Positions 2,498 through 18,622 of a DNA stretch of 64,000 bases are shown here, one piece after another (position 1 is the stretch's first letter; each line of letters opens with the position of its first letter). The position numbers and the translations under genes are program-made. The stretch lies in contig CP000067.1 in assembly GCA_000002445.1 (NCBI GenBank), positions 512,001 to 576,000 on the forward strand. Reading direction: 5' to 3'. Origin of the DNA: Trypanosoma brucei (lineage: Eukaryota). The notes below the pieces were generated by a model. The model was given only the letters and a program-made list of their open reading frames with translations, was not told where the DNA came from and ran no database searches.

Positions 2498-4258
2498 TTA
2501 CGGAGCAGAAGGCAACCTCGCCGATTGTTCATTCATAAGAGAGAGCTGACGCTCAAACGCCCGTTTGTTCAACGTTCGCAACGATGTCATCAATTCCTCT
2601 AGGGCTTGCTGATGGGTCTCCATCCACTCCTTCTGCTCAACAAAAGACTGCAAGCGCGAGTCCAGCAGCGCCAGCGTCATCTTTACAGAAGCTCTCGATT
2701 TCTCTGAACAGGCCGCCGCATTATCTAACTCCGTAATTAGCGGAGGAACCTCGTCGTCCCGTGTACCCCAGAACACACGCTGCAATGTCAAAGAGACGGT
2801 ACGGAACGTCTGCCTGACGCGCTGGCTCTCCGCCTCATTCTCATTGAGGATGTCCCGCTCGTTTATGGTCTCCTTCTCGGAGACTTTTATGAAAGATGCA
2901 TGCTCTTCCCGCAGTATTGTGAGACGGTCTTGGAGCGTCCTAATGATATTCTCCAGTGCTGCTTCGTACTGTTTTACAATTGTCTCATTCGTCTTCTCCC
3001 CCCTCACGCCACTGGCACCGCGGCGTGCACGTGACTCTTCTTGCCGCTTCTGATGATCCTCAGCGAGTTTTGTGTCCCAGAACGACTGTAGCTGCTGCTT
3101 GAGCGCAAGTGTGTTATTCTCATAAATAACTGCATCAGATTGCCGAGCCTCTTCAGAGAGCTTTAGAGCCTCCGACAGCTTCTGGATTTCACTCCGCGCT
3201 TCCGTTTCCGATTCCTGAGTCTTCTCGAGCACTATTGCCATCTCTTCCATCCGCCCCATAAGCTTTGCAAATTCCTCCGCCCGATCAGGGTCGGCATTTG
3301 ACATCGGTGAGCGACCGGCATGGGGCACATCGCCGTTAGTAGCTTCGTTCTTGGTGCGCAGTTTGGCGCGCAAGTTCTCGATAACAACGTCCTTCTCCAG
3401 GAGCTGTTCCTCAAACTCACGCTCCTTCGCCTCCATCTCCTTCTTATTTTCCTGAATAATCGCGGCCACGAGTTCGCTGTTACGGTGGGCAAGTTTTTCA
3501 TTGCGCGCCCGCTCCCGCTTTATGGCCTCAATGGCCTTCTTCCGTTCCTCTTCAAGAGAGTTCTTCTGCTCCGTCATCTGCTGCAGTAATGCCTCAAGAT
3601 CATTGTTGATACCAACCAACTCCCGCTCCCTCTCATCAACCTTCTCCTGCAAATCTTTAAGCGCCTTCTCATGATCGCGAATCAGTTTCTCTATCCGCTT
3701 ATCATTCTCATCCTTCAATCTGGCGATCATCGCCTTGGTTTCTGCCTCCAGTTCTGCATTGCGCTTGAGTAACGCATCAACACCGTCAGGTGGTGCATCA
3801 CGATTTGCATAGAGGCGCATCACCTCGCGAAACGGGTACAAATCAACACGCTGCTGAATTTCTTCCTCGTCAATATCCGCGTCGTGAGTGACGTGAAATG
3901 TGACGTACAAACTGCCAAGTCGAAGCTCCCGCAGTGCGACATTTTCCAACGGCACATCACATGCAGCAGCGGCATCCTTCACAAACACGTCACAGAGTGC
4001 CACCATGTGGTTGTCAAGCACACACTTCCATCCGTCGCCGTCGAAACGCCTCGTGTGCTGTGTTGTAATCATTTCCACGGACGACAATGAGGTCGACGAA
4101 GACATTCCTTCAACCAGATCACTCGTGTTAGACGGAACCGCGTCAGACGCCACATCCACGGGTTGCGCTTGCTTCACAAGCTGCAAGTAACCGCCCACCT
4201 GAGGGCTACCCACAATTTCGGAAGACCATGCCACCTCCACTCCAACAGAAGCCTCCAT
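2498..4258 (-). CDS. Hypothetical coiled-coil protein (~586 aa from the Met at 4258; the six-frame ORF extends to 4336)
   Basis: A long minus-strand ORF whose C-terminal half is rich in heptad-like K/E/R/L sequence (…LEAETKAMIARLKDENDKRIEKLIRDHEKALKDLQEKVDERERELVGI…). The first in-frame ATG at 4336 lies inside a (TA)n tract and the following 'MRGYIYIRT' is not protein-like, so the start was moved to MEASVGVEV at 4258. Confidence 0.6.
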   Translation of the reverse strand: MEASVGVEVAWSSEIVGSPQVGGYLQLVKQAQPVDVASDAVPSNTSDLVEGMSSSTSLSSVEMITTQHTRRFDGDGWKCVLDNHMVALCDVFVKDAAAACDVPLENVALRELRLGSLYVTFHVTHDADIDEEEIQQRVDLYPFREVMRLYANRDAPPDGVDALLKRNAELEAETKAMIARLKDENDKRIEKLIRDHEKALKDLQEKVDERERELVGINNDLEALLQQMTEQKNSLEEERKKAIEAIKRERARNEKLAHRNSELVAAIIQENKKEMEAKEREFEEQLLEKDVVIENLRAKLRTKNEATNGDVPHAGRSPMSNADPDRAEEFAKLMGRMEEMAIVLEKTQESETEARSEIQKLSEALKLSEEARQSDAVIYENNTLALKQQLQSFWDTKLAEDHQKRQEESRARRGASGVRGEKTNETIVKQYEAALENIIRTLQDRLTILREEHASFIKVSEKETINERDILNENEAESQRVRQTFRTVSLTLQRVFWGTRDDEVPPLITELDNAAACSEKSRASVKMTLALLDSRLQSFVEQKEWMETHQQALEELMTSLRTLNKRAFERQLSLMNEQSARLPSAP

Positions 4259-5254
4259 GACTCTCCGGTAAGCTGACGTTGATAAAATGAATGCCCTTAG
4301 CTCGCTCTCTGTACGTATATATATATATCCTCTCACCTCCCTTCAGAGCACCTTTGAAACAAATACGCCAATGACAACAAACAACTGCCAACGAAAGATT
4401 TGAATGCACCTACAAAATGAGGTTACTCTAATATGACCAATAGGGTTACTGGGTGCTCATCGAAAAAAAAAAGCAGAGGAGTGTTAAACATACATATACA
4501 CCTTTTTCAAATGACTACAAAGTGCAAAGGTATCTGACAACTTCTCCCGACCAGCGTGGTATTATTATTATTATTTAAAAGCGCAAGAATTTGGGCGTAC
4601 TACCACAATATGTCGCACTCAGCATGCCCTGTGAACATATGTAATACGACAAAAGCACAAGCCATCACATGCCGCATCAACGGGGCGAAAAACCGAGTGC
4701 ACAAACGCAATCAATCACCCGATCAGTCCACCGTTTTTCAGGTGCCCCCCCCCCAAAAAACCACCTCATCACCAGAAGCATCAGAGACAGGAGGAAAGGC
4801 ATATATTACGCCTTCCAATAGCACTAAAATGCTGCCACCGCAGAATAGAGGCAGTTTGACCATACTGTTCCACTGGAGATTCAGTGGTAAACCGCCACGA
4901 ACTGATTTTGAAAGAAAAAACAAGCATTCGAACCCTTCCCCGACACCTACGTTAACAAATATAAGAGTAACGGAAAAACAGAAGAGTGCAACAGTGATAA
5001 GAAACACAATGCGCCACACCACCGTCAGATATTAGAAATGGCAAATTACACAGAAGTAAATGTTGATTCACTGAATAACAAAAAAAGGCTTCATACAGCA
5101 AAAACGTACATTGCAACGAAACACTGCACTTAAGTAAAAATAAAGGAACATCACCATACATCCAATAGAAAAAAATGTAAGTAGCAATAATACGTATTTA
5201 AAAATGTCAAAATTGTCAGCAACAAAGATGCTTACACGAACAGAAAAAAAAAGA

Positions 5255-8200
5255 CTACGCCTCATTTCCACGCAGTTCTTCACGAAGAGCTTTAACCTCA
5301 TCCTCTAGTCTCTTTATAACTAAGTCATTACACTTTCTCAGCTCCTCTTGAGACTCCACATAATACTTCATCGTCTCCTCCTGAACCCTTATAGACTCTC
5401 TCAGCTTTAGCACCCTCTTGGCCAGGACAGAACAAAGATGGCAATCATTAACATCGGACAGACTTGAAAGAAGAGAAGAACCTTCAAAAGCATCACCACT
5501 TCCACCACGATACGAAACACACAAAGACCCACAATCATCATTTATTTTGGACACAACAGCATCATCTTCTTCACAACGAGAAGCGGCAAGAGCCGAAGAA
5601 AGAGGAAAGCCAACTTCCTCCTTCACCTTAAGTGGGGGCACACAGGTACCCGCATCACCACCAGCACCCTCCGTGGCACCCCTTCGGTCGAGGTCAACTC
5701 CACCACCAAACAGGGAATTACTGCCATCCACAGGGCAAAGAACATTACTAGAAATCGCACCTCCAACGTTACCAGATTTTAAAAACACCACATCATGATC
5801 ATCGGAAACGACTCGACAACCCATAACTCTAAGAGCATCAGCAACACAATGACCAACTGTTTTTTCACAAAGAAAAGCACTATCCTTAGAAACCTTAACA
5901 TTCATATTATCCACAGTAGAATACGCAAAATCATTCACAGCACTCCCACAAACATTGGTACATTGCAGAGCTTCATACTTTTCATTCAAAGCCCGTAATG
6001 ATTTAAGTTCATCCTCCATGGCAGAATTCGAACGCCTCGCAGCTTCATACTGTTCATTCAAGGACCGTAATGATTTAAGTTCATCCTCCATTGCAGTATT
6101 ACTACGTTGTAGAGTTTCATACTGTTCATTCAAAGCTCGCAATGATTTAAGTTCATCCTCCATGTCAGAATTCGAACGTCTCGCAGCTTCATACTGTTCA
6201 TTCAAAGCTCGCAATGATTTAAGTTCATCCTCCATGGCAGAATTCGAACGCCTCGCAGCTTCATACTGTTCATTCAAGGACCGTAATGATTTAAGTTCAT
6301 CCTCCATGGCAGTATTACTACGTTGTAGAGTTTCATACTGTTCATTCAAAGCTCGCAATGATTTAAGTTCATCCTCCATGTCAGAATTCGAACGTCTCAC
6401 AGCTTCATACTGTTCATTCGCAGCTCGCAATGAATCAAGTTCTTCCTCCATGGCAGCATTGGTACGTTGCAGAGTTTCATACTGTTCATTCAAAGCTCGC
6501 AATGAATCAAGTTCTTCCTCCATGGCAGCATTGGTACGTTGAAGAGTTTCATACTGTTCATTCAAAGCTCGCAATGAATCAAGTTCATCCTCCATGGCAG
6601 CATTGGTACGTTGCAGAGTTTCATACTGTTCATTCAAAGCTCGCAATGAATCAAGTTCATCTTCCATGGCAGCATTGGTACGTTGCAGAGTTTCATACTG
6701 TTCATTCAAAGCTCGCAATGAATCAAGTTCATCTTCCATGGCAGCATTTAAATGCCGAAGTTCCTCAAGCTCCTCATTCACGGCCTTCTCTTCTTTAGAT
6801 TGCTCTCTTATACCCTCATCAAGTTCCTCAAGTCGGCTGAGATGTCGTTGAAGTGTTGATTCTTCTGTGGTTTCATGAGCTCCGCCAGCGGTGCCGCTAT
6901 TGTTAGCAGGCTTTTTATACTCCTCCATGACGCAATTGATTATTTCCCTTGATTTCTCCTTGATAAATTCGCAACGATATTCTGCCACTTCCTTGAGTCG
7001 TTCAATCTCCTTTAACTTCCTCTCTAGGTTGAGAATCTGCCCGGTCATTGTACTTATAACGTTCCCACTTTCATTGCATTCCCTCTTAAATTCCCTATAG
7101 ACGTTCAAGATATCTAGATCCTCAGCAACAACATCTCGCAATGAATCAAGTTCTTCCTCCATGGCAGCATTAGTACGCTGCAGAGTTTCATACTGTTCAT
7201 TCACAGCTCGCAATGAATCAAGTTCATCCTCCATAGCAGCATTAGTACGTTGCAGAGTTTCATACTGTTCATTCAAAGCTCGCAATGAATCAAGTTCTTC
7301 CTCCATGGCAGCATTGGCACGCTGCAGAGTTTCATACTGTTCATTCAAAGCTCGCAATGAATCAAGTTCTTCCTCCATGGCAGCATTAGTACGTTGCAGA
7401 GTTTCATACTCAGCAACAACATCTCGCAATGAATCGAGTTCATCCTCCATGGCAGCATTGGTACGTTGCAGAGTTTCATACTGTTCATTCACAGCTCGCA
7501 ATGAATCAAGTTCATCCTCCATGGCAGCATTGGTACGTTGCAGAGTTTCATACTGTTCATTCAAAGCTCGCAATGAATCAAGTTCTTCCTCCATGGCAGC
7601 ATTGGCACGCTGCAGAGTTTCATACTGTTCATTCACAGCTCGCAATGAATCAAGTTCATCCTCCATAGCAGCATTAGTACGTTGCAGAGTTTCATACTGT
7701 TCATTCACAGCTCGCAATGAATCAAGTTCATCTTCCATGGCAGCATTGGTACGTTGCAGAGTTTCATACTGTTCATTCACAGCTCGCAATGAATCAAGTT
7801 CATCCTCCATGGCAGCATTGGTACGTTGCAGAGTTTCATACTGTTCATTCAAAGCTCGCAATGAATCAAGTTCATCTTCCATGGCAGCATTAGTACGCTG
7901 CAGAGTTTCATACTGTTCATTCACAGCTCGCAATGAATCAAGTTCATCTTCCATGGCAGCATTGGCACGCTGCAGAGTTTCATACTGTTCATTCAAAGCT
8001 CGCAATGAATCAAGTTCATCCCCCATGGCAGCATTTAAATGCCGAAGTTCCTCAAGCTCCTCATTCACGGCCTTCTCTTCTTTAGATTGCTCTCTTATAC
8101 CCTCATCAAGTTCCTCAAGTCGGCTGAGATGTCGTTGAAGTGTTGATTCTTCTGTGGTTTCATGAGCTCCGCCAGCGGTGCCGCTATTGTTAGCAGGCTT

Positions 8201-11200
8201 TTTATACTCCTCCATGACGCAATTGATTATTTCCCTTGATTTCTCCTTGATAAATTCGCAACGATATTCTGCCACTTCCTTGAGTCGTTCAATCTCCTTT
8301 AACTTCCTCTCTAGGTTGAGAATCTGCCCGGTCATTGTACTTATAACGTTCCCACTTTCATTGCATTCCCTCTTAAATTCCCTATAGACGTTCAAGATAT
8401 CTAGATCCTCAGCAACAACATCTCGCAATGAATCGAGTTCTTCCTCCATGGCAGCATTAGTACGCTGCAGAGTTTCATACTGTTCATTCACAGCTCGCAA
8501 TGAATCAAGTTCATCCTCCATAGCAGCATTAGTACGTTGCAGAGTTTCATACTGTTCATTCAAAGCTCGCAATGAATCAAGTTCATCCTCCATGGCAGCA
8601 TTGGCACGCTGCAGAGTTTCATACTGTTCATTCAAAGCTCGCAATGAATCAAGTTCTTCCTCCATGGCAGCATTAGTACGTTGCAGAGTTTCATACTGTT
8701 CATTCAAAGCTCGCAATGAATCAAGTTCTTCCTCCATGGCAGCATGAGTACGTTGCAGAGTTTCATACTGTTCATTCAAAGCTCGCAATGAATCAAGTTC
8801 TTCCTCCATGGCAGCATGAGTACGTTGCAGAGTTTCATACTGTTCATTCAAAGCTCGCAATGAATCAAGTTCATCCTCCATAGCAGCGTTGGCACGCTGC
8901 AGAGTTTCATACTGTTCATTCACAGCTCGCAATGAATCAAGTTCATCTTCCATGGCAGCATTGGTACGTTGCAGAGTTTCATACTGTTCATTCACAGCTC
9001 GCAATGAATCAAGTTCATCCTCCATGGCAGCATTGGTACGTTGCAGAGTTTCATACTGTTCATTCACAGCTCGTAATGAATCAAGTTCATCTTCCATGGC
9101 AGCATTGGTACGTTGCAGAGTTTCATACTGTTCATTCAAAGCTCGCAATGAATCAAGTTCATCTTCCATGGCAGCATTTAAATGCCGAAGTTCCTCAAGC
9201 TCCTCATTCACGGCCTTCTCTTCTTTAGATTGCTCTCTTATACCCTCATCAAGTTCCTCAAGTCGGCTGAGATGTCGTTGAAGTGTTGATTCTTCTGTGG
9301 TTTCATGAGCTCCGCCAGCGGTGCCGCTATTGTTAGCAGGCTTTTTATACTCCTCCATGACGCAATTGATTATTTCCCTTGATTTCTCCTTGATAAATTC
9401 GCAACGATATTCTGCCACTTCCTTGAGTCGTTCAATCTCCTTTAACTTCCTCTCTAGGTTGAGAATCTGCCCGGTCATTGTACTTATAACGTTCCCACTT
9501 TCATTGCATTCCCTCTTAAATTCCCTATAGACGTTCAAGATATCTAGATCCTCAGCAACAACATCTCGCAATGAATCGAGTTCTTCCTCCATGGCAGCAT
9601 TAGTACGCTGCAGAGTTTCATACTGTTCATTCACAGCTCGCAATGAATCAAGTTCATCCTCCATAGCAGCATTAGTACGTTGCAGAGTTTCATACTGTTC
9701 ATTCAAAGCTCGCAATGAATCAAGTTCATCCTCCATGGCAGCATTGGCACGCTGCAGAGTTTCATACTGTTCATTCAAAGCTCGCAATGAATCAAGTTCT
9801 TCCTCCATGGCAGCATTAGTACGTTGCAGAGTTTCATACTGTTCATTCAAAGCTCGCAATGAATCAAGTTCTTCCTCCATGGCAGCATTAGTACGTTGCA
9901 GAGTTTCATACTGTTCATTCAAAGCTCGCAATGAATCAAGTTCTTCCTCCATGGCAGCATGAGTACGTTGCAGAGTTTCATACTGTTCATTCAAAGCTCG
10001 CAATGAATCAAGTTCTTCCTCCATGGCAGCATGAGTACGTTGCAGAGTTTCATACTGTTCATTCAAAGCTCGCAATGAATCAAGTTCTTCCTCCATGGCA
10101 GCATTAGTACGTTGCAGAGTTTCATACTGTTCATTCAAAGCTCGCAATGAATCAAGTTCATCCTCCATAGCAGCGTTGGCACGCTGCAGAGTTTCATACT
10201 GTTCATTCACAGCTCGCAATGAATCAAGTTCATCTTCCATGGCAGCATTGGTACGTTGCAGAGTTTCATACTGTTCATTCACAGCTCGCAATGAATCAAG
10301 TTCATCCTCCATGGCAGCATTGGTACGTTGCAGAGTTTCATACTGTTCATTCACAGCTCGTAATGAATCAAGTTCATCTTCCATGGCAGCATTGGTACGT
10401 TGCAGAGTTTCATACTGTTCATTCAAAGCTCGCAATGAATCAAGTTCATCTTCCATGGCAGCATTTAAATGCCGAAGTTCCTCAAGCTCCTCATTCACGG
10501 CCTTCTCTTCTTTAGATTGCTCTCTTATACCCTCATCAAGTTCCTCAAGTCGGCTGAGATGTCGTTGAAGTGTTGATTCTTCTGTGGTTTCATGAGCTCC
10601 GCCAGCGGTGCCGCTATTGTTAGCAGGCTTTTTATACTCCTCCATGACGCAATTGATTATTTCCCTTGATTTCTCCTTGATAAATTCGCAACGATATTCT
10701 GCCACTTCCTTGAGTCGTTCAATCTCCTTTAACTTCCTCTCTAGGTTGAGAATCTGCCCGGTCATTGTACTTATAACGTTCCCACTTTCATTGCATTCCC
10801 TCTTAAATTCCCTATAGACGTTCAAGATATCTAGATCCTCAGCAACAACATCTCGCAATGAATCGAGTTCTTCCTCCATGGCAGCATTAGTACGCTGCAG
10901 AGTTTCATACTGTTCATTCACAGCTCGCAATGAATCAAGTTCATCCTCCATAGCAGCATTAGTACGTTGCAGAGTTTCATACTGTTCATTCAAAGCTCGC
11001 AATGAATCAAGTTCATCCTCCATGGCAGCATTGGCACGCTGCAGAGTTTCATACTGTTCATTCAAAGCTCGCAATGAATCAAGTTCTTCCTCCATGGCAG
11101 CATTAGTACGTTGCAGAGTTTCATACTGTTCATTCAAAGCTCGCAATGAATCAAGTTCTTCCTCCATGGCAGCATTAGTACGTTGCAGAGTTTCATACTG

Positions 11201-14200
11201 TTCATTCAAAGCTCGCAATGAATCAAGTTCTTCCTCCATGGCAGCATGAGTACGTTGCAGAGTTTCATACTGTTCATTCAAAGCTCGCAATGAATCAAGT
11301 TCTTCCTCCATGGCAGCATGAGTACGTTGCAGAGTTTCATACTGTTCATTCAAAGCTCGCAATGAATCAAGTTCTTCCTCCATGGCAGCATTAGTACGTT
11401 GCAGAGTTTCATACTGTTCATTCAAAGCTCGCAATGAATCAAGTTCATCCTCCATAGCAGCGTTGGCACGCTGCAGAGTTTCATACTGTTCATTCACAGC
11501 TCGCAATGAATCAAGTTCATCTTCCATGGCAGCATTGGTACGTTGCAGAGTTTCATACTGTTCATTCACAGCTCGCAATGAATCAAGTTCATCCTCCATG
11601 GCAGCATTGGTACGTTGCAGAGTTTCATACTGTTCATTCACAGCTCGTAATGAATCAAGTTCATCTTCCATGGCAGCATTGGTACGTTGCAGAGTTTCAT
11701 ACTGTTCATTCAAAGCTCGCAATGAATCAAGTTCATCTTCCATGGCAGCATTTAAATGCCGAAGTTCCTCAAGCTCCTCATTCACGGCCTTCTCTTCTTT
11801 AGATTGCTCTCTTATACCCTCATCAAGTTCCTCAAGTCGGCTGAGATGTCGTTGAAGTGTTGATTCTTCTGTGGTTTCATGAGCTCCGCCAGCGGTGCCG
11901 CTATTGTTAGCAGGCTTTTTATACTCCTCCATGACGCAATTGATTATTTCCCTTGATTTCTCCTTGATAAATTCGCAACGATATTCTGCCACTTCCTTGA
12001 GTCGTTCAATCTCCTTTAACTTCCTCTCTAGGTTGAGAATCTGCCCGGTCATTGTACTTATAACGTTCCCACTTTCATTGCATTCCCTCTTAAATTCCCT
12101 ATAGACGTTCAAGATATCTAGATCCTCAGCAACAACATCTCGCAATGAATCGAGTTCTTCCTCCATGGCAGCATTAGTACGCTGCAGAGTTTCATACTGT
12201 TCATTCACAGCTCGCAATGAATCAAGTTCATCTTCCATGGCAGCATTGGTACGTTGCAGAGTTTCATACTGTTCATTCAAAGCTCGCAATGAATCAAGTT
12301 CTTCCTCCATGGCAGCATTAGTACGTTGAAGAGTTTCATACTGTTCATTCGCAGCTCGCAATGAATCAAGTTCATCTTCCATGGCAGCATTGGTACGTTG
12401 CAGAGTTTCGTACTGTTCATTCGCAGCTCGCAATGAATCAAGTTCATCTTCCATGGCAGCATTAGTACGTTGCAGAGTTTCATACTGTTCATTCAAAGCT
12501 CGCAATGAATCAAGTTCTTCCTCCATGGCAGCATTAGTACGTTGAAGAGTTTCATACTGTTCATTCGCAGCTCGCAATGAATCAAGTTCTTCCTCCATGG
12601 CAGCATTGGTACGTTGCAGAGTTTCGTACTGTTCATTCACAGCTCGCAATGAATCAAGTTCTTCCTCCATGGCAGCATTAGTACGTTGCAGAGTTTCATA
12701 CTGTTCATTCGCAGCTCGCAATGAATCAAGTTCTTCCTCCATGGCAGCATTAGTACGTTGCAGAGTTTCATACTGTTCATTCGCAGCTCGCAATGAATCA
12801 AGTTCTTCCTCCATGGCAGCATTGGCACGCTGCAGAGTTTCATACTGTTCATTCGCAGCTCGCAATGAATCAAGTTCATCTTCCATGGCAGCATTGGTAC
12901 GTTGCAGAGTTTCATACTGTTCATTCAAAGCTCGCAATGAATCAAGTTCTTCCTCCATGGCAGCATTAGTACGTTGCAGAGTTTCATACTGTTCATTCAA
13001 AGCTCGCAGCGAATCAAGTTCATCCTCCATAGCAGCATTGGTACGTTGTAGAGCTTCATACTGTTCATTCACAGCTCGCAGCGAATCAAGTTCTTCCTCC
13101 ATGGCAGCATTAGTACGTTGTAGAGTTTCATACTGTTCATTCACAGCTCGCAGCGAATCAAGTTCATCCTCCATAGCAGCATTGGTACGTTGTAGAGCTT
13201 CATACTGTTCATTCACAGCTCTCAGTGAATCAAGTTCTTCCTCCATGGCAGCATTGGTACGTTGTAGAGCTTCATACTGTTCATTCACAGCTCTCAGTGA
13301 ATCAAGTTCTTCCTCCATGGCAGCATTAGTACGTTGTAGAGTTTCATACTGTTCATTCACAGCTCGCAATGAATCAAGTTCTTCCTCCATGGCAGCATTG
13401 GTACGTTGCAGAGTTTCATACTGTTCATTCACAGCTCTCAATGAATCAAGTTCATCCTCCATGGCAGCATTGGTACGTTGCAGAGTTTCATACTGTTCAT
13501 TCAAAGCTCGCAATGAATCAAGTTCTTCCTCCATGGCAGCATTAGTACGTTGCAGAGTTTCATACTGTTCATTCAAAGCTCGCAGCGAATCAAGTTCATC
13601 CTCCATAGCAGCATTGGTACGTTGTAGAGCTTCATACTGTTCATTCACAGCTCGCAGCGAATCAAGTTCTTCCTCCATGGCAGCATTAGTACGTTGTAGA
13701 GTTTCATACTGTTCATTCACAGCTCGCAGCGAATCAAGTTCATCCTCCATAGCAGCATTGGTACGTTGTAGAGCTTCATACTGTTCATTCACAGCTCTCA
13801 GTGAATCAAGTTCTTCCTCCATGGCAGCATTGGTACGTTGTAGAGCTTCATACTGTTCATTCACAGCTCTCAGTGAATCAAGTTCTTCCTCCATGGCAGC
13901 ATTAGTACGTTGTAGAGTTTCATACTGTTCATTCACAGCTCGCAATGAATCAAGTTCTTCCTCCATGGCAGCATTGGTACGTTGCAGAGTTTCATACTGT
14001 TCATTCACAGCTCTCAATGAATCAAGTTCATCCTCCATGGCAGCATTGGTACGTTGCAGAGTTTCATACTGTTCATTCACAGCTCGCAATGAATCAAGTT
14101 CATCCTCCATGGCAGCATGAGTACGTTGCAGAGTTTCATACTGTTCATTCACAGCTCGCAATGAATCAAGTTCATCCTCCATGGCAGCATTGGTACGTTG

Positions 14201-17200
14201 CAGAGTTTCATACTGTTCATTCAAAGCTCGTAATGAATCAAGTTCTTCCTCCATGGCAGCATTAGTACGTTGTAGAGTTTCATACTGTTCATTCACAGCT
14301 CGCAATGAATCAAGTTCATCCTCCATAGCAGCATTGGTACGTTGCAGAGTTTCATACTGTTCATTCAAAGCTCGTAATGAATCAAGTTCTTCCTCCATGG
14401 CAGCATTAGTACGTTGAAGAGTTTCATACTGTTCATTCGCAGCTCGTAACGAATCAAGTTCATCCTCCATGGCAGCATTGGTACGTTGCAGAGTTTCATA
14501 CTGTTCCTTCAAAGCTCTCAGTGAATCAAGTTCATCCTCCATGGCAGCATTAGTACGTTGCAGAGTTTCATACTGTTCATTCGCAGCTCTCAGTGAATCA
14601 AGTTCATCCTCCATGGCAGCATTAGTACGTTGAAGAGTTTCATACTGTTCATTCAAAGCTCTCAGTGAATCAAGTTCATCCTCCATGGCAGCATGAGTAC
14701 GTTGAAGAGTTTCATACTGTTCATTCGCAGCTCTCAGTGAATCAAGTTCTTCCTCCATGGCAGCATTAGTACGTTGAAGAGTTTCATACTGTTCATTCAA
14801 AGCTCGCAATGAATCAAGTTCATCTTCCATAACAGCATTAGTACGTTGCAGAGTTTCATACTGCTCATTCAAAGCTCTCAGTGAATCAAGTTCTTCCTCC
14901 ATGGCAGCATTAGTACGTTGAAGAGTTTCATACTGTTCATTCGCAGCTCTCAGTGAATCAAGTTCTTCCTCCATGGCAGCATTAGTACGTTGTAGAGTTT
15001 CATACTGTTCATTCGCAGCTCTCAGTGAATCAAGTTCATTCTGTATTTTATCGTTTGTTGTTCTATCTTCTTTCAGTTGCTTTGGTGTAGCTTGCAGTGG
15101 TTGTTGTTCAATAGCTACTCTGGTGTCTTTATTGCTGTCTTCTTTATACTGTTCATTCAAAGCTCTCAGTGAATCGAGTTCATTTATTATATCTTCGTTG
15201 GTGCGGCGGAGATTTTCATATTGTTCATTCACAGCTCTCAGTGAATCAAGTTCTTCCTCCATGTTGGGGTCGAAGTGCCGCGTGCTTCTTCCTCTTTTTT
15301 TTAATGCCCGTAAATACTCGAGTTGAGCTTCTACTTCGGCATTCAGTTGCTGAAGTATTTTGTACTCTTCTGTGTATTTTCTTTTTTCTGCTATATCGCG
15401 TTCATCGTCAATAATCTTCTCTTTTGTGTTTTTTTCCTGTTTTTTCAGTATACGATGCGTAGGTTGATCTTTTTCGGCACTTATGTTTACATGCTGCAGA
15501 GTTTCACACTGTTCTTTGAAAGCTCGTAACAACTTAAGCTCATTCCCCATATCCTCATTTGTCCGTCTTGCTGCTTTAAGTTCCTTTTGAACGACCCACA
15601 GTGGTTGGTTGCCAACTCCAATATCAGCAGTGGTACGTTGCAGAGCTTCATACTGTTCATTCGCAGCTCGTAACGAATCAAGTTCATCCTCCATGGCAGC
15701 ATTGGTACGTTGCATAGCTTCATACTGTTCATTCACAGCTCGCAATGAATCAAGTTCATCCTCCATAGCAGCATTGGTACGTTGCATAGCTTCATACTGT
15801 TCATTCACAGCTCTCAATGAATCAAGTTCATCCTCTATGGCAGCATTGGTACGTTGCATAGCTTCATACTGTTCATTCACAGCTCTCAATGAATCAAGTT
15901 CATCCTCTATGGCAGCATTGGTACGTTGCATAGCTTCATACTGTTCATTCACAGCTCGCAACGAATCAAGTTCATCCTCCATGGCAGCATTGGTACGTTG
16001 CAGAGTTTCATACTGTTCATTCACAGCTCGCAATGAATCAAGTTCATCCTCCATAGCAGCATTGGTACGTTGCATAGCTTCATACTGTTCATTCACAGCT
16101 CTCAATGAATCAAGTTCATCCTCCATGGCAGCATTGGTACGTTGCAGAGTTTCATACTGTTCATTCAAAGCTCGCAATGAATCAAGTTCTTCCTCCATGG
16201 CAGCATTAGTACGTTGCAGAGTTTCATACTGTTCATTCACAGCTCGTAATGAATCAAGTTCATCCTCTATGGCAGCATTGGTACGTTGCATAGCTTCATA
16301 CTGTTCATTCACAGCTCTCAATGAATCAAGTTCATCCTCTATGGCAGCATTGGTACGTTGCGCGGTATCTTTGTTGACTGTGCTTTCAATGGAAATTATA
16401 CGCTGTTGTTGTTGCTGAGACTGGCTCTCTACGTCAGCGGCAAACTCTGTACAACATTGAGTTGGGTTTGACTCCTTCGTTTTTTTTATTTTTGGGGATG
16501 GCTGTTGTTTTTTGCTTCTTTTATGTGGTGTTTGGTCGGCTTTATACTTTGTTAACTTGAGGTGCTCTCGGGCCTCCTTACTGTCCGCTTGTGTTTTGCG
16601 TACTTTATGTGTTTTATCCTTTTCCTCTCTGCTTATTTTTGTTGCTACTTCTTTTTTACTCTTTTTGTGATCAACTGCCGTTCGTGCGGTAAGCTTTTTT
16701 GTAGTGCGTGCCCCTTCTTCCCTATCGCTTGTGACTGAATTGCTGCTAATGTTTGCTGCTGATGGCAACCTCTTTAGTATTTCTCCCCCCTCGTTTGTGT
16801 ATGTCTTGTCTTCATTTTCTTTGGGGAGGTGTGTGTCACTCTGGGAACGAGGGGAATCTGTGTGCTCTTGTGCTTCTGAAGAAATTATAGCTGTCCCCTT
16901 CCCTTTCTTCTTCGCTGCAGTTGCTTTGGTGGATGTCTTGGATAAACGTGACTGCTTACCGGTATCGTGATCCCCAGTAGCGTCGACATCCGTATTAGCT
17001 GCTGCCGTGTGTGTGTCTTTTGTATTTGTTACCCGACTGTGCGCTGACCGAGCCGCGTCGCTTTGCGAAAACCCGCACATCCCCTTGTCATCCTTTTCCT
17101 CATCAGCCGTAACAACCAGGGGGCCGTGCCGACCTGTGTGAATCGCTGCATTGGTGGACTTTCTTTCCTGATCGGGGACCATCCCGTGTCGGTCGTCCAA

Positions 17201-18622
17201 TCCCTCCTCCATACTGTTTCTCTCCTCCAGGAACCGTTGGAGTTCGATTGTATGCTTGAAGCTCCCTTCAGAACAAGGAAGTTGGTTATGTTGCGTGGAA
17301 ACATCCTCTCCTTGTGTAGCGACCAATAAACCTCCTTCATCGATAGCGTTTTGCAGCTTCTTTATTATTCCCTCCAACATATCATTGGTCCTTTGAAGCT
17401 CCTCAAGGGAATGGATCAACTCGCCCTGTCGCCTCGCAGACTCTTCCTCCGCCTTCTGAGCCTCTTCCAACTGGCCTCGGAGGACTTTGTTCTCTCTCTC
17501 ACAAATAGCCAACTGTTGCAGAAGCGTTCTGTTTTCACTCCGAATGTTCTCCATTTCTGTTCGAAGTTCAGCCGCATCCTTCTCCACAACCTTTATTCGT
17601 TCGTCCTCGTCGACACTGTGCTGACCACGTTCTAACGAAGCGTCACTGCACGCTCCCACAACATCCGGCTTACTAGAAGACAAGCCCACCTTGTTTTTGG
17701 AATTCACATACTTGAGGCTGTCGGATTGCAACGTGATGTACCTCCACAGCTCTGACCGGTGAATTGTCGCTATTTTGGGGATGCTGCCTTCTATCAACGC
17801 TGTCGGGATGATAGAAGATCGAAGAATGGTTTTCTCTGGCATCGGTAGGTCATCGAGGGCGTTCCCCCCTTCAACCGCCGCAAGACGATCCTGAATATCC
17901 CTGATAGCAAGGACAATACGTTCCAGATGTTCTTGGGAAGATGCAGCTAGCGTAGTGGCTGCCACATGGTTATGATTCACGTAGTTTAGCTGAGCCTTCA
18001 CCCATTGATGGAGTGGCCCCGCAGCACGTGACGCCACCGAAGCATCGTCGTCGCTGATATCGTTGCTCCTGCAGCGCTTGATGATCTCGTTTCGGCGCTC
18101 GGGAGGCAGCTTTGAAGGGTCAAAACTGAGGACACGTGCTATAAAGCCCGGTTGCCTGAGTTGTGCGCGCAGCTCAGCCCAAGTAGAGGTGGGTAAAGTG
18201 ATACCCAATATAATGAGAATGTCATCCAATATTTTCCTTACAATGGGCGGTGGTGACACATATGACTGAAGCTCTCGGAAGCAAGCACCTTCGATTCCTT
18301 CAACCATGGTGTTAGCACGCTCAACTTGGATTCTCAACGATGCGATACGCTCCTCCTCAACGGCTGCTCTTCCATTCCGTAGTTGTTGGCGTAGTGCAAG
18401 CAGTTGCTCTTTATATGCGGTTGCCCTCTCATCCACGTCTTGTGAAGGGCTATTGTTTGCTACGGAAACACGAGCCACATAATCGGAAAGAAATGTTACA
18501 TACCCCTTCTCGTAGCACCAAGAATCGTCTCTCAGCGTATCAAACGCAACTAAGTCACCGACAGAGACGACATCAGATTTCACTTGAGATAATACTGATT
18601 CATCAAACTCCAAGATCTCCAT
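5255..18622 (-). CDS. Giant repetitive coiled-coil protein (4455 aa) with an N-terminal dynein-stalk microtubule-binding-like domain and ~140 copies of a 24-aa repeat
   Basis: A single uninterrupted 13,368-nt ORF. The N-terminus (aa ~75–250) aligns by eye to dynein heavy chain CC1–MTBD–CC2 (YVSPPPIVRKILDDILIILG…TWAELRAQLRQPGFIARVLSFDPSKLPPERRNEIIKRCRSNDIS…ASRAAGPLHQWVKAQLNYV). The middle is a 24-aa repeat, consensus roughly AMEEELDSLRALNEQYETLQRTNA. The C-terminus is ~330 aa of unique sequence. This position between ALBA and CC2D matches my recollection of a T. brucei 'antigenic protein, putative'. Confidence 0.85.
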   Translation of the reverse strand: MEILEFDESVLSQVKSDVVSVGDLVAFDTLRDDSWCYEKGYVTFLSDYVARVSVANNSPSQDVDERATAYKEQLLALRQQLRNGRAAVEEERIASLRIQVERANTMVEGIEGACFRELQSYVSPPPIVRKILDDILIILGITLPTSTWAELRAQLRQPGFIARVLSFDPSKLPPERRNEIIKRCRSNDISDDDASVASRAAGPLHQWVKAQLNYVNHNHVAATTLAASSQEHLERIVLAIRDIQDRLAAVEGGNALDDLPMPEKTILRSSIIPTALIEGSIPKIATIHRSELWRYITLQSDSLKYVNSKNKVGLSSSKPDVVGACSDASLERGQHSVDEDERIKVVEKDAAELRTEMENIRSENRTLLQQLAICERENKVLRGQLEEAQKAEEESARRQGELIHSLEELQRTNDMLEGIIKKLQNAIDEGGLLVATQGEDVSTQHNQLPCSEGSFKHTIELQRFLEERNSMEEGLDDRHGMVPDQERKSTNAAIHTGRHGPLVVTADEEKDDKGMCGFSQSDAARSAHSRVTNTKDTHTAAANTDVDATGDHDTGKQSRLSKTSTKATAAKKKGKGTAIISSEAQEHTDSPRSQSDTHLPKENEDKTYTNEGGEILKRLPSAANISSNSVTSDREEGARTTKKLTARTAVDHKKSKKEVATKISREEKDKTHKVRKTQADSKEAREHLKLTKYKADQTPHKRSKKQQPSPKIKKTKESNPTQCCTEFAADVESQSQQQQQRIISIESTVNKDTAQRTNAAIEDELDSLRAVNEQYEAMQRTNAAIEDELDSLRAVNEQYETLQRTNAAMEEELDSLRALNEQYETLQRTNAAMEDELDSLRAVNEQYEAMQRTNAAMEDELDSLRAVNEQYETLQRTNAAMEDELDSLRAVNEQYEAMQRTNAAIEDELDSLRAVNEQYEAMQRTNAAIEDELDSLRAVNEQYEAMQRTNAAMEDELDSLRAVNEQYEAMQRTNAAMEDELDSLRAANEQYEALQRTTADIGVGNQPLWVVQKELKAARRTNEDMGNELKLLRAFKEQCETLQHVNISAEKDQPTHRILKKQEKNTKEKIIDDERDIAEKRKYTEEYKILQQLNAEVEAQLEYLRALKKRGRSTRHFDPNMEEELDSLRAVNEQYENLRRTNEDIINELDSLRALNEQYKEDSNKDTRVAIEQQPLQATPKQLKEDRTTNDKIQNELDSLRAANEQYETLQRTNAAMEEELDSLRAANEQYETLQRTNAAMEEELDSLRALNEQYETLQRTNAVMEDELDSLRALNEQYETLQRTNAAMEEELDSLRAANEQYETLQRTHAAMEDELDSLRALNEQYETLQRTNAAMEDELDSLRAANEQYETLQRTNAAMEDELDSLRALKEQYETLQRTNAAMEDELDSLRAANEQYETLQRTNAAMEEELDSLRALNEQYETLQRTNAAMEDELDSLRAVNEQYETLQRTNAAMEEELDSLRALNEQYETLQRTNAAMEDELDSLRAVNEQYETLQRTHAAMEDELDSLRAVNEQYETLQRTNAAMEDELDSLRAVNEQYETLQRTNAAMEEELDSLRAVNEQYETLQRTNAAMEEELDSLRAVNEQYEALQRTNAAMEEELDSLRAVNEQYEALQRTNAAMEDELDSLRAVNEQYETLQRTNAAMEEELDSLRAVNEQYEALQRTNAAMEDELDSLRALNEQYETLQRTNAAMEEELDSLRALNEQYETLQRTNAAMEDELDSLRAVNEQYETLQRTNAAMEEELDSLRAVNEQYETLQRTNAAMEEELDSLRAVNEQYEALQRTNAAMEEELDSLRAVNEQYEALQRTNAAMEDELDSLRAVNEQYETLQRTNAAMEEELDSLRAVNEQYEALQRTNAAMEDELDSLRALNEQYETLQRTNAAMEEELDSLRALNEQYETLQRTNAAMEDELDSLRAANEQYETLQRANAAMEEELDSLRAANEQYETLQRTNAAMEEELDSLRAANEQYETLQRTNAAMEEELDSLRAVNEQYETLQRTNAAMEEELDSLRAANEQYETLQRTNAAMEEELDSLRALNEQYETLQRTNAAMEDELDSLRAANEQYETLQRTNAAMEDELDSLRAANEQYETLQRTNAAMEEELDSLRALNEQYETLQRTNAAMEDELDSLRAVNEQYETLQRTNAAMEEELDSLRDVVAEDLDILNVYREFKRECNESGNVISTMTGQILNLERKLKEIERLKEVAEYRCEFIKEKSREIINCVMEEYKKPANNSGTAGGAHETTEESTLQRHLSRLEELDEGIREQSKEEKAVNEELEELRHLNAAMEDELDSLRALNEQYETLQRTNAAMEDELDSLRAVNEQYETLQRTNAAMEDELDSLRAVNEQYETLQRTNAAMEDELDSLRAVNEQYETLQRANAAMEDELDSLRALNEQYETLQRTNAAMEEELDSLRALNEQYETLQRTHAAMEEELDSLRALNEQYETLQRTHAAMEEELDSLRALNEQYETLQRTNAAMEEELDSLRALNEQYETLQRTNAAMEEELDSLRALNEQYETLQRANAAMEDELDSLRALNEQYETLQRTNAAMEDELDSLRAVNEQYETLQRTNAAMEEELDSLRDVVAEDLDILNVYREFKRECNESGNVISTMTGQILNLERKLKEIERLKEVAEYRCEFIKEKSREIINCVMEEYKKPANNSGTAGGAHETTEESTLQRHLSRLEELDEGIREQSKEEKAVNEELEELRHLNAAMEDELDSLRALNEQYETLQRTNAAMEDELDSLRAVNEQYETLQRTNAAMEDELDSLRAVNEQYETLQRTNAAMEDELDSLRAVNEQYETLQRANAAMEDELDSLRALNEQYETLQRTNAAMEEELDSLRALNEQYETLQRTHAAMEEELDSLRALNEQYETLQRTHAAMEEELDSLRALNEQYETLQRTNAAMEEELDSLRALNEQYETLQRTNAAMEEELDSLRALNEQYETLQRANAAMEDELDSLRALNEQYETLQRTNAAMEDELDSLRAVNEQYETLQRTNAAMEEELDSLRDVVAEDLDILNVYREFKRECNESGNVISTMTGQILNLERKLKEIERLKEVAEYRCEFIKEKSREIINCVMEEYKKPANNSGTAGGAHETTEESTLQRHLSRLEELDEGIREQSKEEKAVNEELEELRHLNAAMEDELDSLRALNEQYETLQRTNAAMEDELDSLRAVNEQYETLQRTNAAMEDELDSLRAVNEQYETLQRTNAAMEDELDSLRAVNEQYETLQRANAAMEDELDSLRALNEQYETLQRTHAAMEEELDSLRALNEQYETLQRTHAAMEEELDSLRALNEQYETLQRTNAAMEEELDSLRALNEQYETLQRANAAMEDELDSLRALNEQYETLQRTNAAMEDELDSLRAVNEQYETLQRTNAAMEEELDSLRDVVAEDLDILNVYREFKRECNESGNVISTMTGQILNLERKLKEIERLKEVAEYRCEFIKEKSREIINCVMEEYKKPANNSGTAGGAHETTEESTLQRHLSRLEELDEGIREQSKEEKAVNEELEELRHLNAAMGDELDSLRALNEQYETLQRANAAMEDELDSLRAVNEQYETLQRTNAAMEDELDSLRALNEQYETLQRTNAAMEDELDSLRAVNEQYETLQRTNAAMEDELDSLRAVNEQYETLQRTNAAMEDELDSLRAVNEQYETLQRANAAMEEELDSLRALNEQYETLQRTNAAMEDELDSLRAVNEQYETLQRTNAAMEDELDSLRDVVAEYETLQRTNAAMEEELDSLRALNEQYETLQRANAAMEEELDSLRALNEQYETLQRTNAAMEDELDSLRAVNEQYETLQRTNAAMEEELDSLRDVVAEDLDILNVYREFKRECNESGNVISTMTGQILNLERKLKEIERLKEVAEYRCEFIKEKSREIINCVMEEYKKPANNSGTAGGAHETTEESTLQRHLSRLEELDEGIREQSKEEKAVNEELEELRHLNAAMEDELDSLRALNEQYETLQRTNAAMEDELDSLRALNEQYETLQRTNAAMEDELDSLRALNEQYETLQRTNAAMEEELDSLRALNEQYETLQRTNAAMEEELDSLRAANEQYEAVRRSNSDMEDELKSLRALNEQYETLQRSNTAMEDELKSLRSLNEQYEAARRSNSAMEDELKSLRALNEQYEAARRSNSDMEDELKSLRALNEQYETLQRSNTAMEDELKSLRSLNEQYEAARRSNSAMEDELKSLRALNEKYEALQCTNVCGSAVNDFAYSTVDNMNVKVSKDSAFLCEKTVGHCVADALRVMGCRVVSDDHDVVFLKSGNVGGAISSNVLCPVDGSNSLFGGGVDLDRRGATEGAGGDAGTCVPPLKVKEEVGFPLSSALAASRCEEDDAVVSKINDDCGSLCVSYRGGSGDAFEGSSLLSSLSDVNDCHLCSVLAKRVLKLRESIRVQEETMKYYVESQEELRKCNDLVIKRLEDEVKALREELRGNEA
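5955..16420 (-). repeat. Tandem array of a 72-bp (24-codon) in-frame coding repeat, ~140 copies (~10.4 kb)
   Basis: The plus strand shows the 72-mer 'ccatggcagcattggtacgttgcagagtttcatactgttcattcacagctcgcaatgaatcaagttcatcctc' iterated. Copies near the centre are almost identical; copies at both edges are degenerate (E→K, A/V/L and T/A variants). Confidence 0.95.
6710..12140 (-). repeat. Higher-order tandem repeat: 5 copies of a ~1287-bp unit (one copy 1143 bp)
   Basis: Each unit is a ~130-aa unique block plus ~12 of the 72-bp repeats. Identical plus-strand 69-aa ORFs recur at 6891, 8178, 9321, 10608 and 11895 (spacing 1287, 1143, 1287, 1287). Identical 98/157-aa ORFs recur at 8932, 10219 and 11506. 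The units starting at 9321, 10608 and 11895 appear essentially base-identical. The protein shows the block 'DVVAEDLDILNVYREFKRECNESGNV…LEELRHLN' five times plus one truncated junction ('DVVAEYETLQ'). Confidence 0.9.

What the first reader, a model, noticed from the sequence alone, without database searches (positions are those of the whole stretch)
6710..12140. Five near-identical 1.29 kb higher-order units nested inside the coding repeat
A ~130-aa unique block (DVVAEDLDILNVYREFKRECNESGNV…CEFIKEKSREIINCVMEEYKKPANNSGTAGGAHETTEE…LEELRHLN) is regularly spaced every 429 aa (1287 bp). It occurs five times, plus one truncated junction (DVVAEYETLQ). The three upstream units (9321, 10608, 11895) look base-identical. 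The two downstream units are 1143 and 1287 bp and carry single substitutions such as MEDELD→MGDELD. Identity at this level over 1.3 kb units implies either very recent unequal-crossover or gene-conversion expansion, or mis-assembly. Either way the true unit number is uncertain and could differ between haplotypes. The unique block has two Cys pairs and a G/S/T-rich linker, so it may be a periodic docking module along the coiled coil.
Basis: seen in the sequence. Interest (0 to 1): 0.55.

Follow-up and report, generated by a model that had tools for sequence, protein, structure and literature searches.

The report
Nested super-repeat in trypanosome giant protein
The region is a real nested super-repeat inside the 24-amino-acid repeat array of a known giant Trypanosoma brucei cytoskeletal protein (Tb927.4.2070, "AGP"); it is an ordinary product of recent unequal recombination, its copy number cannot be trusted from one assembly, and the repeated "unique block" looks like a helix-loop-helix interruption of the rod, not a globular docking domain.

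Summary
The minus-strand ORF 5255..18622 (4455 aa, about 511 kDa) is T. brucei Tb927.4.2070: published tagging primers match its 3' end and UTR. It contains 112 monomers of 24 aa (72 nt). Five copies of a 390-nt block are base-identical, spaced 1287, 1287, 1143 and 1287 nt. Units 1 and 2 are identical, and window 8819-12232 is exactly periodic. Unit 3 lacks 144 nt and has one mismatch. Unit 4 has reshuffled monomers (96.9%). "Unit 5" is only the block. Monomers within a unit average 92% identity, so this is a classic higher-order repeat. Two block copies in a T. equiperdum assembly share four substitutions against all five copies here, which indicates concerted evolution or amplification after the lineages split. 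Other assemblies break or have gaps in this array, so the copy number stays unverified. The docking-module idea is weak: the block has 3 Cys, not two pairs. AlphaFold gives two long helices joined by a roughly 15-residue disordered loop, with no globular fold. Spacing is not constant. In passing, the N-terminus is a dynein stalk/microtubule-binding-domain homologue (E=5e-11; Foldseek top hits all dynein). Overall this is a new example of a known kind, of low to moderate interest.

The parts
5255..18622 (-). Whole gene: Tb927.4.2070 ('antigenic protein, putative' / AGP), 4455 aa, predicted 511 kDa, pI 4.4
   Evidence: ORF listed and translated. The C-terminal tagging primer of PMC3313915 matches 5258-5344(-) with 0 mismatches. 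The 3'UTR primer matches 5162-5255 with 1 mismatch at its last base.
5957..16351 (-). Array of 24-aa (72-nt) monomers, consensus NAAMEDELDSLRAVNEQYETLQRT: 112 monomers, 56 distinct nucleotide variants, hydrophobic period 3.43 (=24/7)
   Evidence: TRF reports period 72/144/216. Monomer map. Periodicity. PMC9585242 describes the protein as mainly 24-aa repeats.
10853..12139 (-). Higher-order unit U1 (1287 nt): block plus 12 monomers (nt035,36,37,38,39,30,40,40,30,41,42,43)
   Evidence: identical to U2 (0/1287).
9566..10852 (-). Higher-order unit U2 (1287 nt), base-identical to U1
8423..9565 (-). Higher-order unit U3 (1143 nt): U1 lacking two monomers (144 nt), plus 1 mismatch
7136..8422 (-). Unit U4 (1287 nt): identical block, then 12 monomers in a different order (nt044,33,35,37,45,46,02,37,47*,41,30,43). 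It is 96.9% identical to U1 in ungapped register.
7388..7459 (-). Chimeric 'solo junction' monomer NAAMEDELDSLRDVVAE|YETLQRT. It has a block-type head (including the CTC Leu codon seen in four of the five block-bearing heads) joined in register to an ordinary tail. It is either a block deletion or an empty site.
6746..7135 (-). Fifth copy of the 390-nt block (B5). It is not followed by the higher-order unit. The exact match to the other copies covers 6645-7147.
11750..12139 (-). Block B1. The other copies are 10463-10852, 9176-9565 and 8033-8422. Composition: 117-aa non-repeat insert plus 13-aa diverged monomer tail. Predicted as helix (block residues 1-74), loop KPANNSGTAGGAHET (residues 75-89; for B1, window 11873-11917), then helix (90-130).
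8819..12232 (-). Stretch that is exactly periodic at 1287 nt (2127-nt exact run plus offset). This is the part whose copy number cannot be determined without spanning reads.
17870..18448 (-). N-terminal dynein-stalk/microtubule-binding-domain-like module (aa 59-251; MTBD core aa 112-215 = window 17978-18289). It gives context for how the protein works.
   Evidence: phmmer against PDB: 49 matched chains (E<=10), all dynein or dynein-containing, best E=5.1e-11. AF2 model. Foldseek against PDB: the top 44 hits are all dynein stalk/MTBD.

Best explanation
The region is a higher-order tandem repeat inside the coding repeat array of the T. brucei giant protein Tb927.4.2070 (AGP).

Proposed history:
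1. An ancestral monomer acquired a 117-aa non-repeat insert.
2. A 1287-nt segment (that monomer plus 12 ordinary 72-nt monomers) was then amplified in register by unequal sister-chromatid or homologous recombination, and kept homogeneous by gene conversion.
3. Later small events followed: loss of two monomers (U3), monomer reshuffling and one block deletion (U4), and truncation at the array edge (B5).

Shown here: the anatomy, the identity pattern, and homogenisation within a genome relative to a sister lineage.

Inferred, at the protein level: a dynein-like microtubule-binding head is followed by a roughly 3465-residue acidic alpha-helical rod. In its distal third, short flexible G/S/T/P loops break the helix about every 381-429 residues (about 57-64 nm if extended). 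These loops most likely act as hinges or exposed (phospho-)sites. The regular spacing is mainly a by-product of how the DNA was duplicated, not a selected ruler.
For: - Gene identity: primers match. Neighbours are Alba, a FAZ1_cons protein and a C2-domain protein, in the same order as in T. equiperdum.
- Higher-order signature: 56 nucleotide variants among 112 monomers, with mean monomer identity 92.2%. Against that, U1=U2 at 100%, U3 at 99.9%, and all five blocks at 100%.
- A 2127-nt exact run at offset 1287.
- Two other, block-free super-repeats in the same gene (576-nt exact duplication at 12896-14047; 216-nt K-type super-repeat) show that segmental duplication is a general habit of this array.
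- The variants U3, U4 and the chimeric monomer are what unequal exchange leaves behind.
- Concerted evolution: the T. equiperdum blocks A and B share 4 substitutions against all 5 copies here, and carry lineage-specific YESLQ monomers that are absent here.
- Orthologues in T. vivax and T. cruzi keep the 24-aa period with unrelated repeat sequences. [quoted passage not shown]
- Block structure: AF2 gives pLDDT 89, helices 2-110 and 126-212, a loop of about 15 residues whose core (query residues 114-124) has pLDDT below 50, and pTM 0.32.
Against: - No raw reads or phased assembly could be examined, so the exact identity of U1 and U2, and the number of units, could partly reflect assembly choices.
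- The only long-read comparison (T. equiperdum) has a gap and frameshifts, so its block number (at least 2) and spacing are unreliable.
- The hinge function is inferred from a single-sequence AF2 monomer model. Coiled-coil oligomer state was not modelled.
- Conservation of the block outside the T. brucei group could not be tested, because every orthologue found is truncated within the repeats.
- Perfect conservation of all five blocks (0 differences in 390 nt x 5) is also what purifying selection on a functional module would give.
Confidence: 0.78

Rival explanations
1. Assembly artefact: the super-repeat exists, but the number and perfect identity of the units (especially U1=U2) result from how reads were tiled or polished. 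The true gene has more or fewer units, possibly differing between the two alleles.
For: - Window 8819-12232 is exactly periodic over 3.4 kb. That is longer than Sanger or Illumina reads, so any count of 2 or more fits local overlaps.
- Other assemblies fail here: the T. equiperdum PacBio assembly has a 100-N gap and three broken ORFs, and the Illumina contig ends at the repeats.
- The full-length protein is absent from the protein collection.
Against: - The array is not uniformly homogenised. There are 56 monomer variants, and U3, U4 and B5 are distinct variants with clean in-frame junctions, which argues against wholesale consensus polishing.
- The ORF stays open for 13.4 kb.
- Multiple block copies also occur in an independent assembly.
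- This rival concerns the count only, not the existence of the structure.
Confidence: 0.3
2. Selected periodic module: the block is a functional binding or docking site (for example for mRNP, kinase or cytoskeletal partners). Its roughly 64-nm spacing along a microtubule-anchored rod is maintained by selection, as in a molecular ruler or scaffold.
For: - All five blocks are identical, while the surrounding monomers vary.
- Three of four intervals are exactly 429 aa, about 63.7 nm at 0.1485 nm per residue, close to 8 tubulin dimers (inference).
- The head is a dynein-type MTBD.
- The protein is recovered with EIF4E3/EIF4G4 (PMC9585242), in ALBA4 proximity labelling (PMC10998879) and in TbPLK BioID (PMC4551316), so it does have partners.
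- The loop is S/T-rich.
Against: - Spacing is not conserved: 381 aa in U3, a block-less junction in U4, and about 237 aa between the two T. equiperdum blocks.
- No globular fold is predicted, there is no Pfam hit above threshold, and no homologue was found.
- The N-terminal two thirds of the rod has no such block.
- Identity of the blocks extends to synonymous sites and into flanking monomers, as expected from recent duplication and not from selection.
Confidence: 0.15
3. The blocks are independent insertions of a mobile or foreign sequence into the repeat array.
For: The 117-aa core has no detectable similarity to the monomers (z<1 against shuffles). A block-less 'empty-site-like' monomer exists.
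Against: - Every block lies at the same position of a monomer.
- Identical flanking sequence extends hundreds to thousands of bases (503-2127-nt exact runs).
- The insert is in frame and helical, continuous with the rod.
- No repeats or transposase-like features were seen, and there were no Rfam hits in the window.
Confidence: 0.02

Closest known systems
NUP-1 (Tb927.2.4230) and FAZ10 (Tb927.7.3330): giant near-perfect-repeat coiled-coil proteins of T. brucei
   Same: All are kinetoplastid-specific proteins over 400 kDa, made almost wholly of near-identical helical repeats flanked by unique N- and C-terminal regions. Repeats are nearly identical within a species and diverged between species (PMC3313915). 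Repeat number is suspected to be under-assembled or allelic (PMC5358337). FAZ10 also has a structured non-repeat region interrupting its repeats (bioRxiv 10.64898/2026.05.05.722045).
   Different: This is a different gene: chromosome 4 neighbourhood, 24-aa monomers versus 144-aa (NUP-1) or 35-aa (FAZ10), and its own primers match. Here the interruption is itself repeated five times as part of a 429-aa super-repeat. FAZ10 has a single central region.
Higher-order repeats of satellite DNA (e.g. primate alpha-satellite) and super-repeats or segmental triplication of nebulin (own knowledge)
   Same: There are two levels of periodicity. Diverged monomers (about 92% identity here) are grouped in a multi-monomer unit whose copies are 99-100% identical. 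This pattern is generated by unequal crossing-over and is prone to copy-number variation and assembly collapse. Nebulin shows the same at protein level: about 35-aa modules in 7-module super-repeats, with a near-identical triplicated block that varies in copy number.
   Different: The array is coding and in frame, unlike satellites. Unlike nebulin, no evidence links the super-repeat length to a filament periodicity, and the spacing is not constant.
Dynein heavy chain stalk / microtubule-binding domain (Pfam PF12777 'MT')
   Same: The N-terminal aa 59-251 align to dynein MTBDs, including the PP..V...ILLG...W and AAGPL..WV.AQL.Y motifs (E=5e-11). The predicted fold superposes on yeast dynein MTBD at 2.7 A over 127 columns. 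The same module heads other kinetoplastid non-motor proteins: FAZ1_cons/Gb4-like proteins and an Angomonas protein already annotated 'Microtubule-binding stalk of dynein motor'.
   Different: There are no AAA+ motor domains. The module sits at the N-terminus of a repeat rod. It falls below the Pfam reporting threshold for this protein. Microtubule binding is untested.

Membership tests
Higher-order tandem repeat (HOR) generated by unequal exchange | Monomers within a unit are clearly diverged from each other | tested here: met
   88 ordinary monomers average 5.6 differences per 72 nt (92.2% identity). The 12 monomers of U1 comprise 10 distinct nucleotide variants.
Higher-order tandem repeat (HOR) generated by unequal exchange | Multi-monomer units are far more similar to each other than monomers are, head to tail without spacer | tested here: met
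   U1=U2 at 100%, U3 at 99.9% (with a 144-nt gap), U4 at 96.9%. Units abut directly. There is a 2127-nt exact run at offset 1287.
Higher-order tandem repeat (HOR) generated by unequal exchange | Copies homogenised within a genome relative to a related genome (concerted evolution) | tested here: met
   Four substitutions are shared by both T. equiperdum block copies and absent from all five copies here. Lineage-specific monomer variants are also seen. Caveat: that assembly is error-prone.
Higher-order tandem repeat (HOR) generated by unequal exchange | Copy-number polymorphism between haplotypes or strains | not testable with these tools
   No reads or phased assemblies were available. The T. 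equiperdum assemblies have a gap or are broken in the array.
Tb927.4.2070 / AGP orthologue group | Sequence identity to the published gene-specific primers, and conserved neighbourhood | tested here: met
   The 87-nt C-terminal primer matches with 0 mismatches. The 94-nt 3'UTR primer has 1 mismatch. Neighbours are Alba / FAZ1_cons / C2 proteins, in the same order in T. equiperdum. The 24-aa repeats agree with PMC9585242.
FAZ10 (Tb927.7.3330) | 35-aa repeats, 13,005-bp ORF on chromosome 7, single central region | tested here: not met
   Repeats here are 24 aa, the ORF is 13,368 nt, and the Tb927.4.2070 primers match (PMC5358337). Considered and rejected.
Dynein stalk/MTBD fold (PF12777) | Significant sequence similarity to dynein MTBDs | tested here: met
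   phmmer against PDB: mouse dynein MTBD 6rzb_C E=5.1e-11, with 49 matched chains (E<=10), all dynein or dynein-containing. 548 library proteins at E<=1e-3, including full dynein heavy chains.
Dynein stalk/MTBD fold (PF12777) | Passes the Pfam model's gathering score | tested here: not met
   hmmscan of aa 1-755 returned no family at E<=1. Homology therefore rests on pairwise and fold evidence.
Dynein stalk/MTBD fold (PF12777) | Helical bundle flanked by two antiparallel stalk helices | tested here: met
   AF2 gives helix 59-108, bundle 112-215 and helix 227-251, with pLDDT about 72-91 across aa 61-220. Foldseek: 5ayh E=1.2e-9; 6kjn TM 0.73, rmsd 2.7 A.
Dynein heavy chain (motor) | AAA+ ring domains | tested here: not met
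   There are no AAA or dynein motor Pfam hits in the unique regions, and the rest of the protein is 24-aa repeats. It is not a dynein.
Canonical heptad coiled coil | Hydrophobic periodicity of 3.5 residues | tested here: not met
   The dominant period is 3.43 (= 24/7, i.e. three heptads plus three residues per monomer). The protein is helical and amphipathic, but the register is non-canonical. Oligomer state was not tested.
   AF2 gives two long helices plus a disordered loop, pTM 0.32. The block has 3 Cys. No Pfam hit reaches its cut-off.

The most novel reading that the evidence does not exclude
AGP is a microtubule-anchored molecular scaffold. A dynein-type MTBD head fixes it to subpellicular or other microtubules. 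The five identical helix-loop-helix blocks, spaced about 57-64 nm along the distal rod, would be periodic attachment or phospho-regulated hinge sites that position mRNP or translation complexes (EIF4E3/EIF4G4, ALBA) or PLK substrates on the cytoskeleton. Block number, set by unequal recombination, would tune valency between strains.
Probability: 0.1. Interest if true: 0.6.

Novelty: new member of a known kind. Interest (0 to 1): 0.27.

Why it matters
The practical value is for annotation.
- The length, mass and repeat count of Tb927.4.2070 in any single assembly should be treated as provisional.
- Short-read mapping, RNAi or CRISPR targeting, and peptide quantification in window 6645-12232 are ambiguous.

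For biology, the map gives defined reagents. The 117-aa insert is the only unique sequence within the distal rod. With the dynein-like head, it offers a testable picture of an uncharacterised 0.5-MDa protein that recurs in translation-factor, ALBA and PLK proximity datasets.

For evolution, it is a clean coding example of higher-order repeat formation and concerted evolution. The 24-residue period is conserved across Trypanosoma while the repeat sequence turns over.

Tried and rejected
- FAZ10 was my first guess for the gene. I rejected it because FAZ10 has 35-aa repeats, lies on chromosome 7 and has different primers.
- Protein-database searches with the N-terminus, the block and the C-terminus returned only two T. 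equiperdum fragments. An exact look-up of the full protein found nothing. Strain comparison was therefore limited to one gapped PacBio locus and one Illumina contig end.
- I tested whether the 117-aa core is a degenerate run of monomers. It scores no better than shuffles.
- I looked for block-like or C-terminal-like segments in 151 retrieved proteins, including the T. vivax, T. theileri, T. cruzi and T. conorhini orthologues. None were found, but all of these are truncated in the repeats.
- Pfam on the N-terminus, block and C-terminus gave nothing above cut-off.
- An Rfam scan of the whole window gave no hits.
- The repeat finder on the gene only re-described the 72-nt ladder with its 423-nt steps.
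- Literature searches for a described dynein-MTBD-like head in FAZ1 or AGP, or for a described super-repeat in this gene, found nothing specific.

Full report
**What the window is**

The finding lies in a 13,368-nt minus-strand ORF, 5255..18622, encoding 4455 aa.
- The C-terminal in-situ tagging primer published for Tb927.4.2070 (PMC3313915) matches 5258-5344(-) without mismatch.
- The paired 3'UTR primer matches 5162-5255 with one terminal mismatch.
- The N-terminal 431 aa are 99% identical to a T. equiperdum 'antigenic protein' fragment.
- The neighbours are an Alba protein, a FAZ1_cons-domain protein and a coiled-coil C2-domain protein. The same order is seen on the T. equiperdum chromosome.

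The gene is therefore Trypanosoma brucei Tb927.4.2070. [quoted passage not shown] It was also found in ALBA4 proximity labelling (PMC10998879) and in TbPLK BioID, where tagging gave a cytoplasmic signal (PMC4551316). My first guess, FAZ10, is wrong: FAZ10 has 35-aa repeats and is a different locus.

**Checking the observation**

The 130-aa block starts at aa 2162, 2591, 3020, 3401 and 3830. In window coordinates the copies are 11750-12139, 10463-10852, 9176-9565, 8033-8422 and 6746-7135. Spacings are 429, 429, 381 and 429 aa. The truncated DVVAEYETLQ junction is at aa 3734. All five 390-nt blocks are base-identical, and the first two 1287-nt intervals are identical. The longest exact self-match in the gene is 2127 nt at offset 1287, so 8819-12232 is exactly periodic. 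TRF independently sees the 72/144/216-nt ladder across 5953-16361.

**Anatomy**

I cut the array into monomers, giving 112 monomers of 24 aa with 56 different nucleotide versions.

| Unit | Composition | Relation to U1 |
|---|---|---|
| U1 | block-bearing monomer (141 aa) + monomers nt035,36,37,38,39,30,40,40,30,41,42,43 | reference |
| U2 | same as U1 | 0/1287 differences |
| U3 | lacks the two nt030 monomers | one 144-nt gap plus 1 mismatch |
| U4 | identical block, then 44,33,35,37,45,46,02,37,47*,41,30,43 | 40 mismatches in register, 96.9% |
| After block 5 | about 100 nt matches the other units, then ordinary monomers, then six K-type (ELKSLR) monomers | not a unit |

Background identity between ordinary monomers is 92.2%. 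Diverged monomers combined with near-identical multi-monomer units are the textbook signature of a higher-order repeat.

Monomer 47* (7388-7459) is chimeric, NAAMEDELDSLRDVVAE|YETLQRT. Its head carries the CTC leucine codon seen in four of the five block-bearing heads, where ordinary monomers have CTT, and it joins an ordinary tail exactly in register. Only 2 nt of microhomology flank the junction. It is either a block-bearing monomer that lost its insert or a relic of the pre-insertion state.

At the block's far end, AVNEELEELRHLN is a diverged copy of the monomer tail AVNEQYETLQRTN. The truly foreign part is therefore 117 aa, inserted between monomer positions 12 and 13. That core is no more similar to the monomers than its shuffles are.

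The same gene holds two further, block-free super-repeats: an exact 8-monomer (576-nt) duplication at 12896-14047 and a 3-monomer K-type unit. Segmental duplication is evidently the norm in this array.

**Origin**

An independent T. equiperdum PacBio assembly carries at least two blocks. Both share four substitutions, and the resulting IS>VG change, against all five copies here. Each also has private differences. That assembly also has YESLQ monomers that do not occur here, and it lacks the K-type monomers. Copies thus resemble each other within a genome more than they resemble their counterparts across genomes. This means concerted evolution or amplification after the lineages split.

Orthologues in T. 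vivax and T. cruzi (named) keep a 24-residue period with unrelated repeat sequences. This is the behaviour described for NUP-1 (PMC3313915). The best explanation is in-register unequal recombination plus gene conversion, followed by small deletions and rearrangements.

**How far the count can be trusted**

I could not see reads. The 3.4-kb exactly periodic stretch cannot be counted without spanning reads.
- The T. equiperdum long-read assembly has a 100-N gap and frameshifts in the array.
- The Illumina assembly stops at the array.
- The full-length protein is missing from the protein collection.
- FAZ10 is a precedent for a T. brucei giant whose gel size greatly exceeds the annotated repeats (PMC5358337).

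Against a pure artefact:
- The array is not homogenised overall.
- U3, U4 and B5 are distinct in-frame variants.
- The ORF stays open.

I conclude that the structure is real and the number of identical units is provisional.

**What the block is**

It has three cysteines, not two pairs. Pfam gives only sub-threshold noise, and no homologue was found among 5.8 billion proteins. AlphaFold2 on the block with 36- and 47-residue flanks gives the following (mean pLDDT 89):
- one helix running from the upstream monomers through block residue 74;
- a loop of about 15 residues, KPANNSGTAGGAHET, whose core is low-confidence (pLDDT below 50);
- a second helix running into the downstream monomers.

pTM is only 0.32, meaning no defined tertiary packing. 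This is a single-sequence monomer model, so it cannot say how chains pair.

The array's hydrophobic period is 3.43 (24/7), i.e. three heptads plus three residues per monomer. This is helical and amphipathic but not a canonical heptad register.

I therefore read each block as a stretch of non-repeat helix with a flexible G/S/T/P loop. It is a hinge or an exposed, possibly phosphorylatable site in the rod, not a globular docking domain. The regular 429-aa spacing (about 64 nm if extended) is what duplication of a fixed DNA unit gives automatically. The 381-aa interval, the block-less junction and the roughly 237-aa spacing in T. equiperdum argue against a strict ruler.

Residues 59-251 are a homologue of the dynein stalk and microtubule-binding domain.
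- phmmer against PDB gives E=5.1e-11 to the mouse dynein MTBD, with 49 matched chains (E<=10), all dynein or dynein-containing.
- An AF2 model built with five orthologues shows helix, helical bundle, helix.
- Its 44 significant Foldseek hits are all dynein stalks or MTBDs, e.g. 5ayh at E=1.2e-9, and 6kjn at 2.7 A over 127 columns.
- There are no motor domains.
- A whole-library HMMER search shows the same head on kinetoplastid FAZ1_cons/Gb4-type proteins and on PH-domain inositol-phosphatase proteins. One Angomonas entry is already auto-annotated 'Microtubule-binding stalk of dynein motor'.

AGP is thus best pictured as a microtubule-binding head, an acidic rod of about 3465 residues (pI 4.4), and a 233-aa C-terminal domain. 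Microtubule binding is inferred, not shown.

**Verdict**

The recombination and assembly-uncertainty reading is supported. The docking-module reading is not. The gene and its 24-aa repeats are known. The nested super-repeat does not appear in the papers I could search, but it belongs to a well-known kind (higher-order repeats, nebulin-like super-repeats, perfect-repeat giants of trypanosomes). Interest is low to moderate and mainly practical.

Noticed in passing
window 17870-18448 (-), protein aa 59-251: The N-terminus of the giant protein is a dynein stalk/microtubule-binding-domain homologue with no motor domains. PDB phmmer gives E=5e-11, and the 44 significant Foldseek hits are all dynein. 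Pfam misses it in this protein. The same head occurs on kinetoplastid FAZ1_cons/Gb4-like proteins and on PH + inositol-phosphatase proteins. I found no paper that discusses it.
   Followed up: partly
window 18458-18568 (-), protein aa 19-55: A small three-stranded beta domain is predicted ahead of the stalk helix (AF2 pLDDT about 60). It is conserved across Trypanosoma orthologues (invariant S20 V21 G22 ... W35 Y37 G40 V42 T43 F44 L45 S46). Its identity is unknown.
   Followed up: no
window 12896-14047 (-): A second higher-order repeat without any block: eight 72-nt monomers (576 nt) are duplicated exactly, with an exact run of 622 nt covering 12882-14079.
   Followed up: partly
window 5957-6388 (-): The last six monomers are a distinct K-type (ELKSLR, RRS/QRS) arranged as a 3-monomer (216-nt) super-repeat. 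They are absent from the T. equiperdum assembly, which goes from the last block through 3 monomers straight into the C-terminal domain.
   Followed up: partly
window 14984-15631 (-), protein aa 998-1213: An irregular, degenerate stretch interrupts the N-terminal part of the array. It has diverged monomer remnants such as NELKLLRAFKEQCETLQ and QLEYLRALKK, plus non-repeat linkers. It looks like an older, decayed counterpart of the block-type interruption.
   Followed up: no
orthologues P0003 (T. vivax), P0005/P0153 (T. cruzi): The repeat length of 24 aa is conserved across Trypanosoma, while the repeat sequence is unrelated (AELKAAGASAKELEKLRGDNARLE; LDALQRQNEELQSQLKESRRGEEK). This points to a constraint on period, not sequence. 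All database orthologues are truncated within the repeats.
   Followed up: partly
window 689-4336 and 20617-23337 (-): The gene sits in a run of cytoskeleton and mRNP genes: Alba-domain protein (689-1261), FAZ1_cons-domain protein (2498-4336, probably FAZ8) and C2-domain coiled-coil protein (20617-23337, probably CC2D). ALBA4 proximity labelling recovers Tb927.4.2070 (PMC10998879), whose gene lies a few kb from this Alba-domain gene.
   Followed up: partly
window 23338-34878: An ORF-poor stretch of about 11.5 kb lies between minus-strand and plus-strand gene runs, with the GC-skew sign changing near 28 kb. This is a divergent strand-switch (transcription start) region. No Rfam family was detected anywhere in the window.
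   Followed up: no
window 7161-8138, 12597-14120, 15609-16418 (+): Long antisense ORFs (325, 507 and 269 aa) run through the repeat array. They are by-products of the periodic sequence lacking stop codons in one antisense frame, not genes.
   Followed up: no
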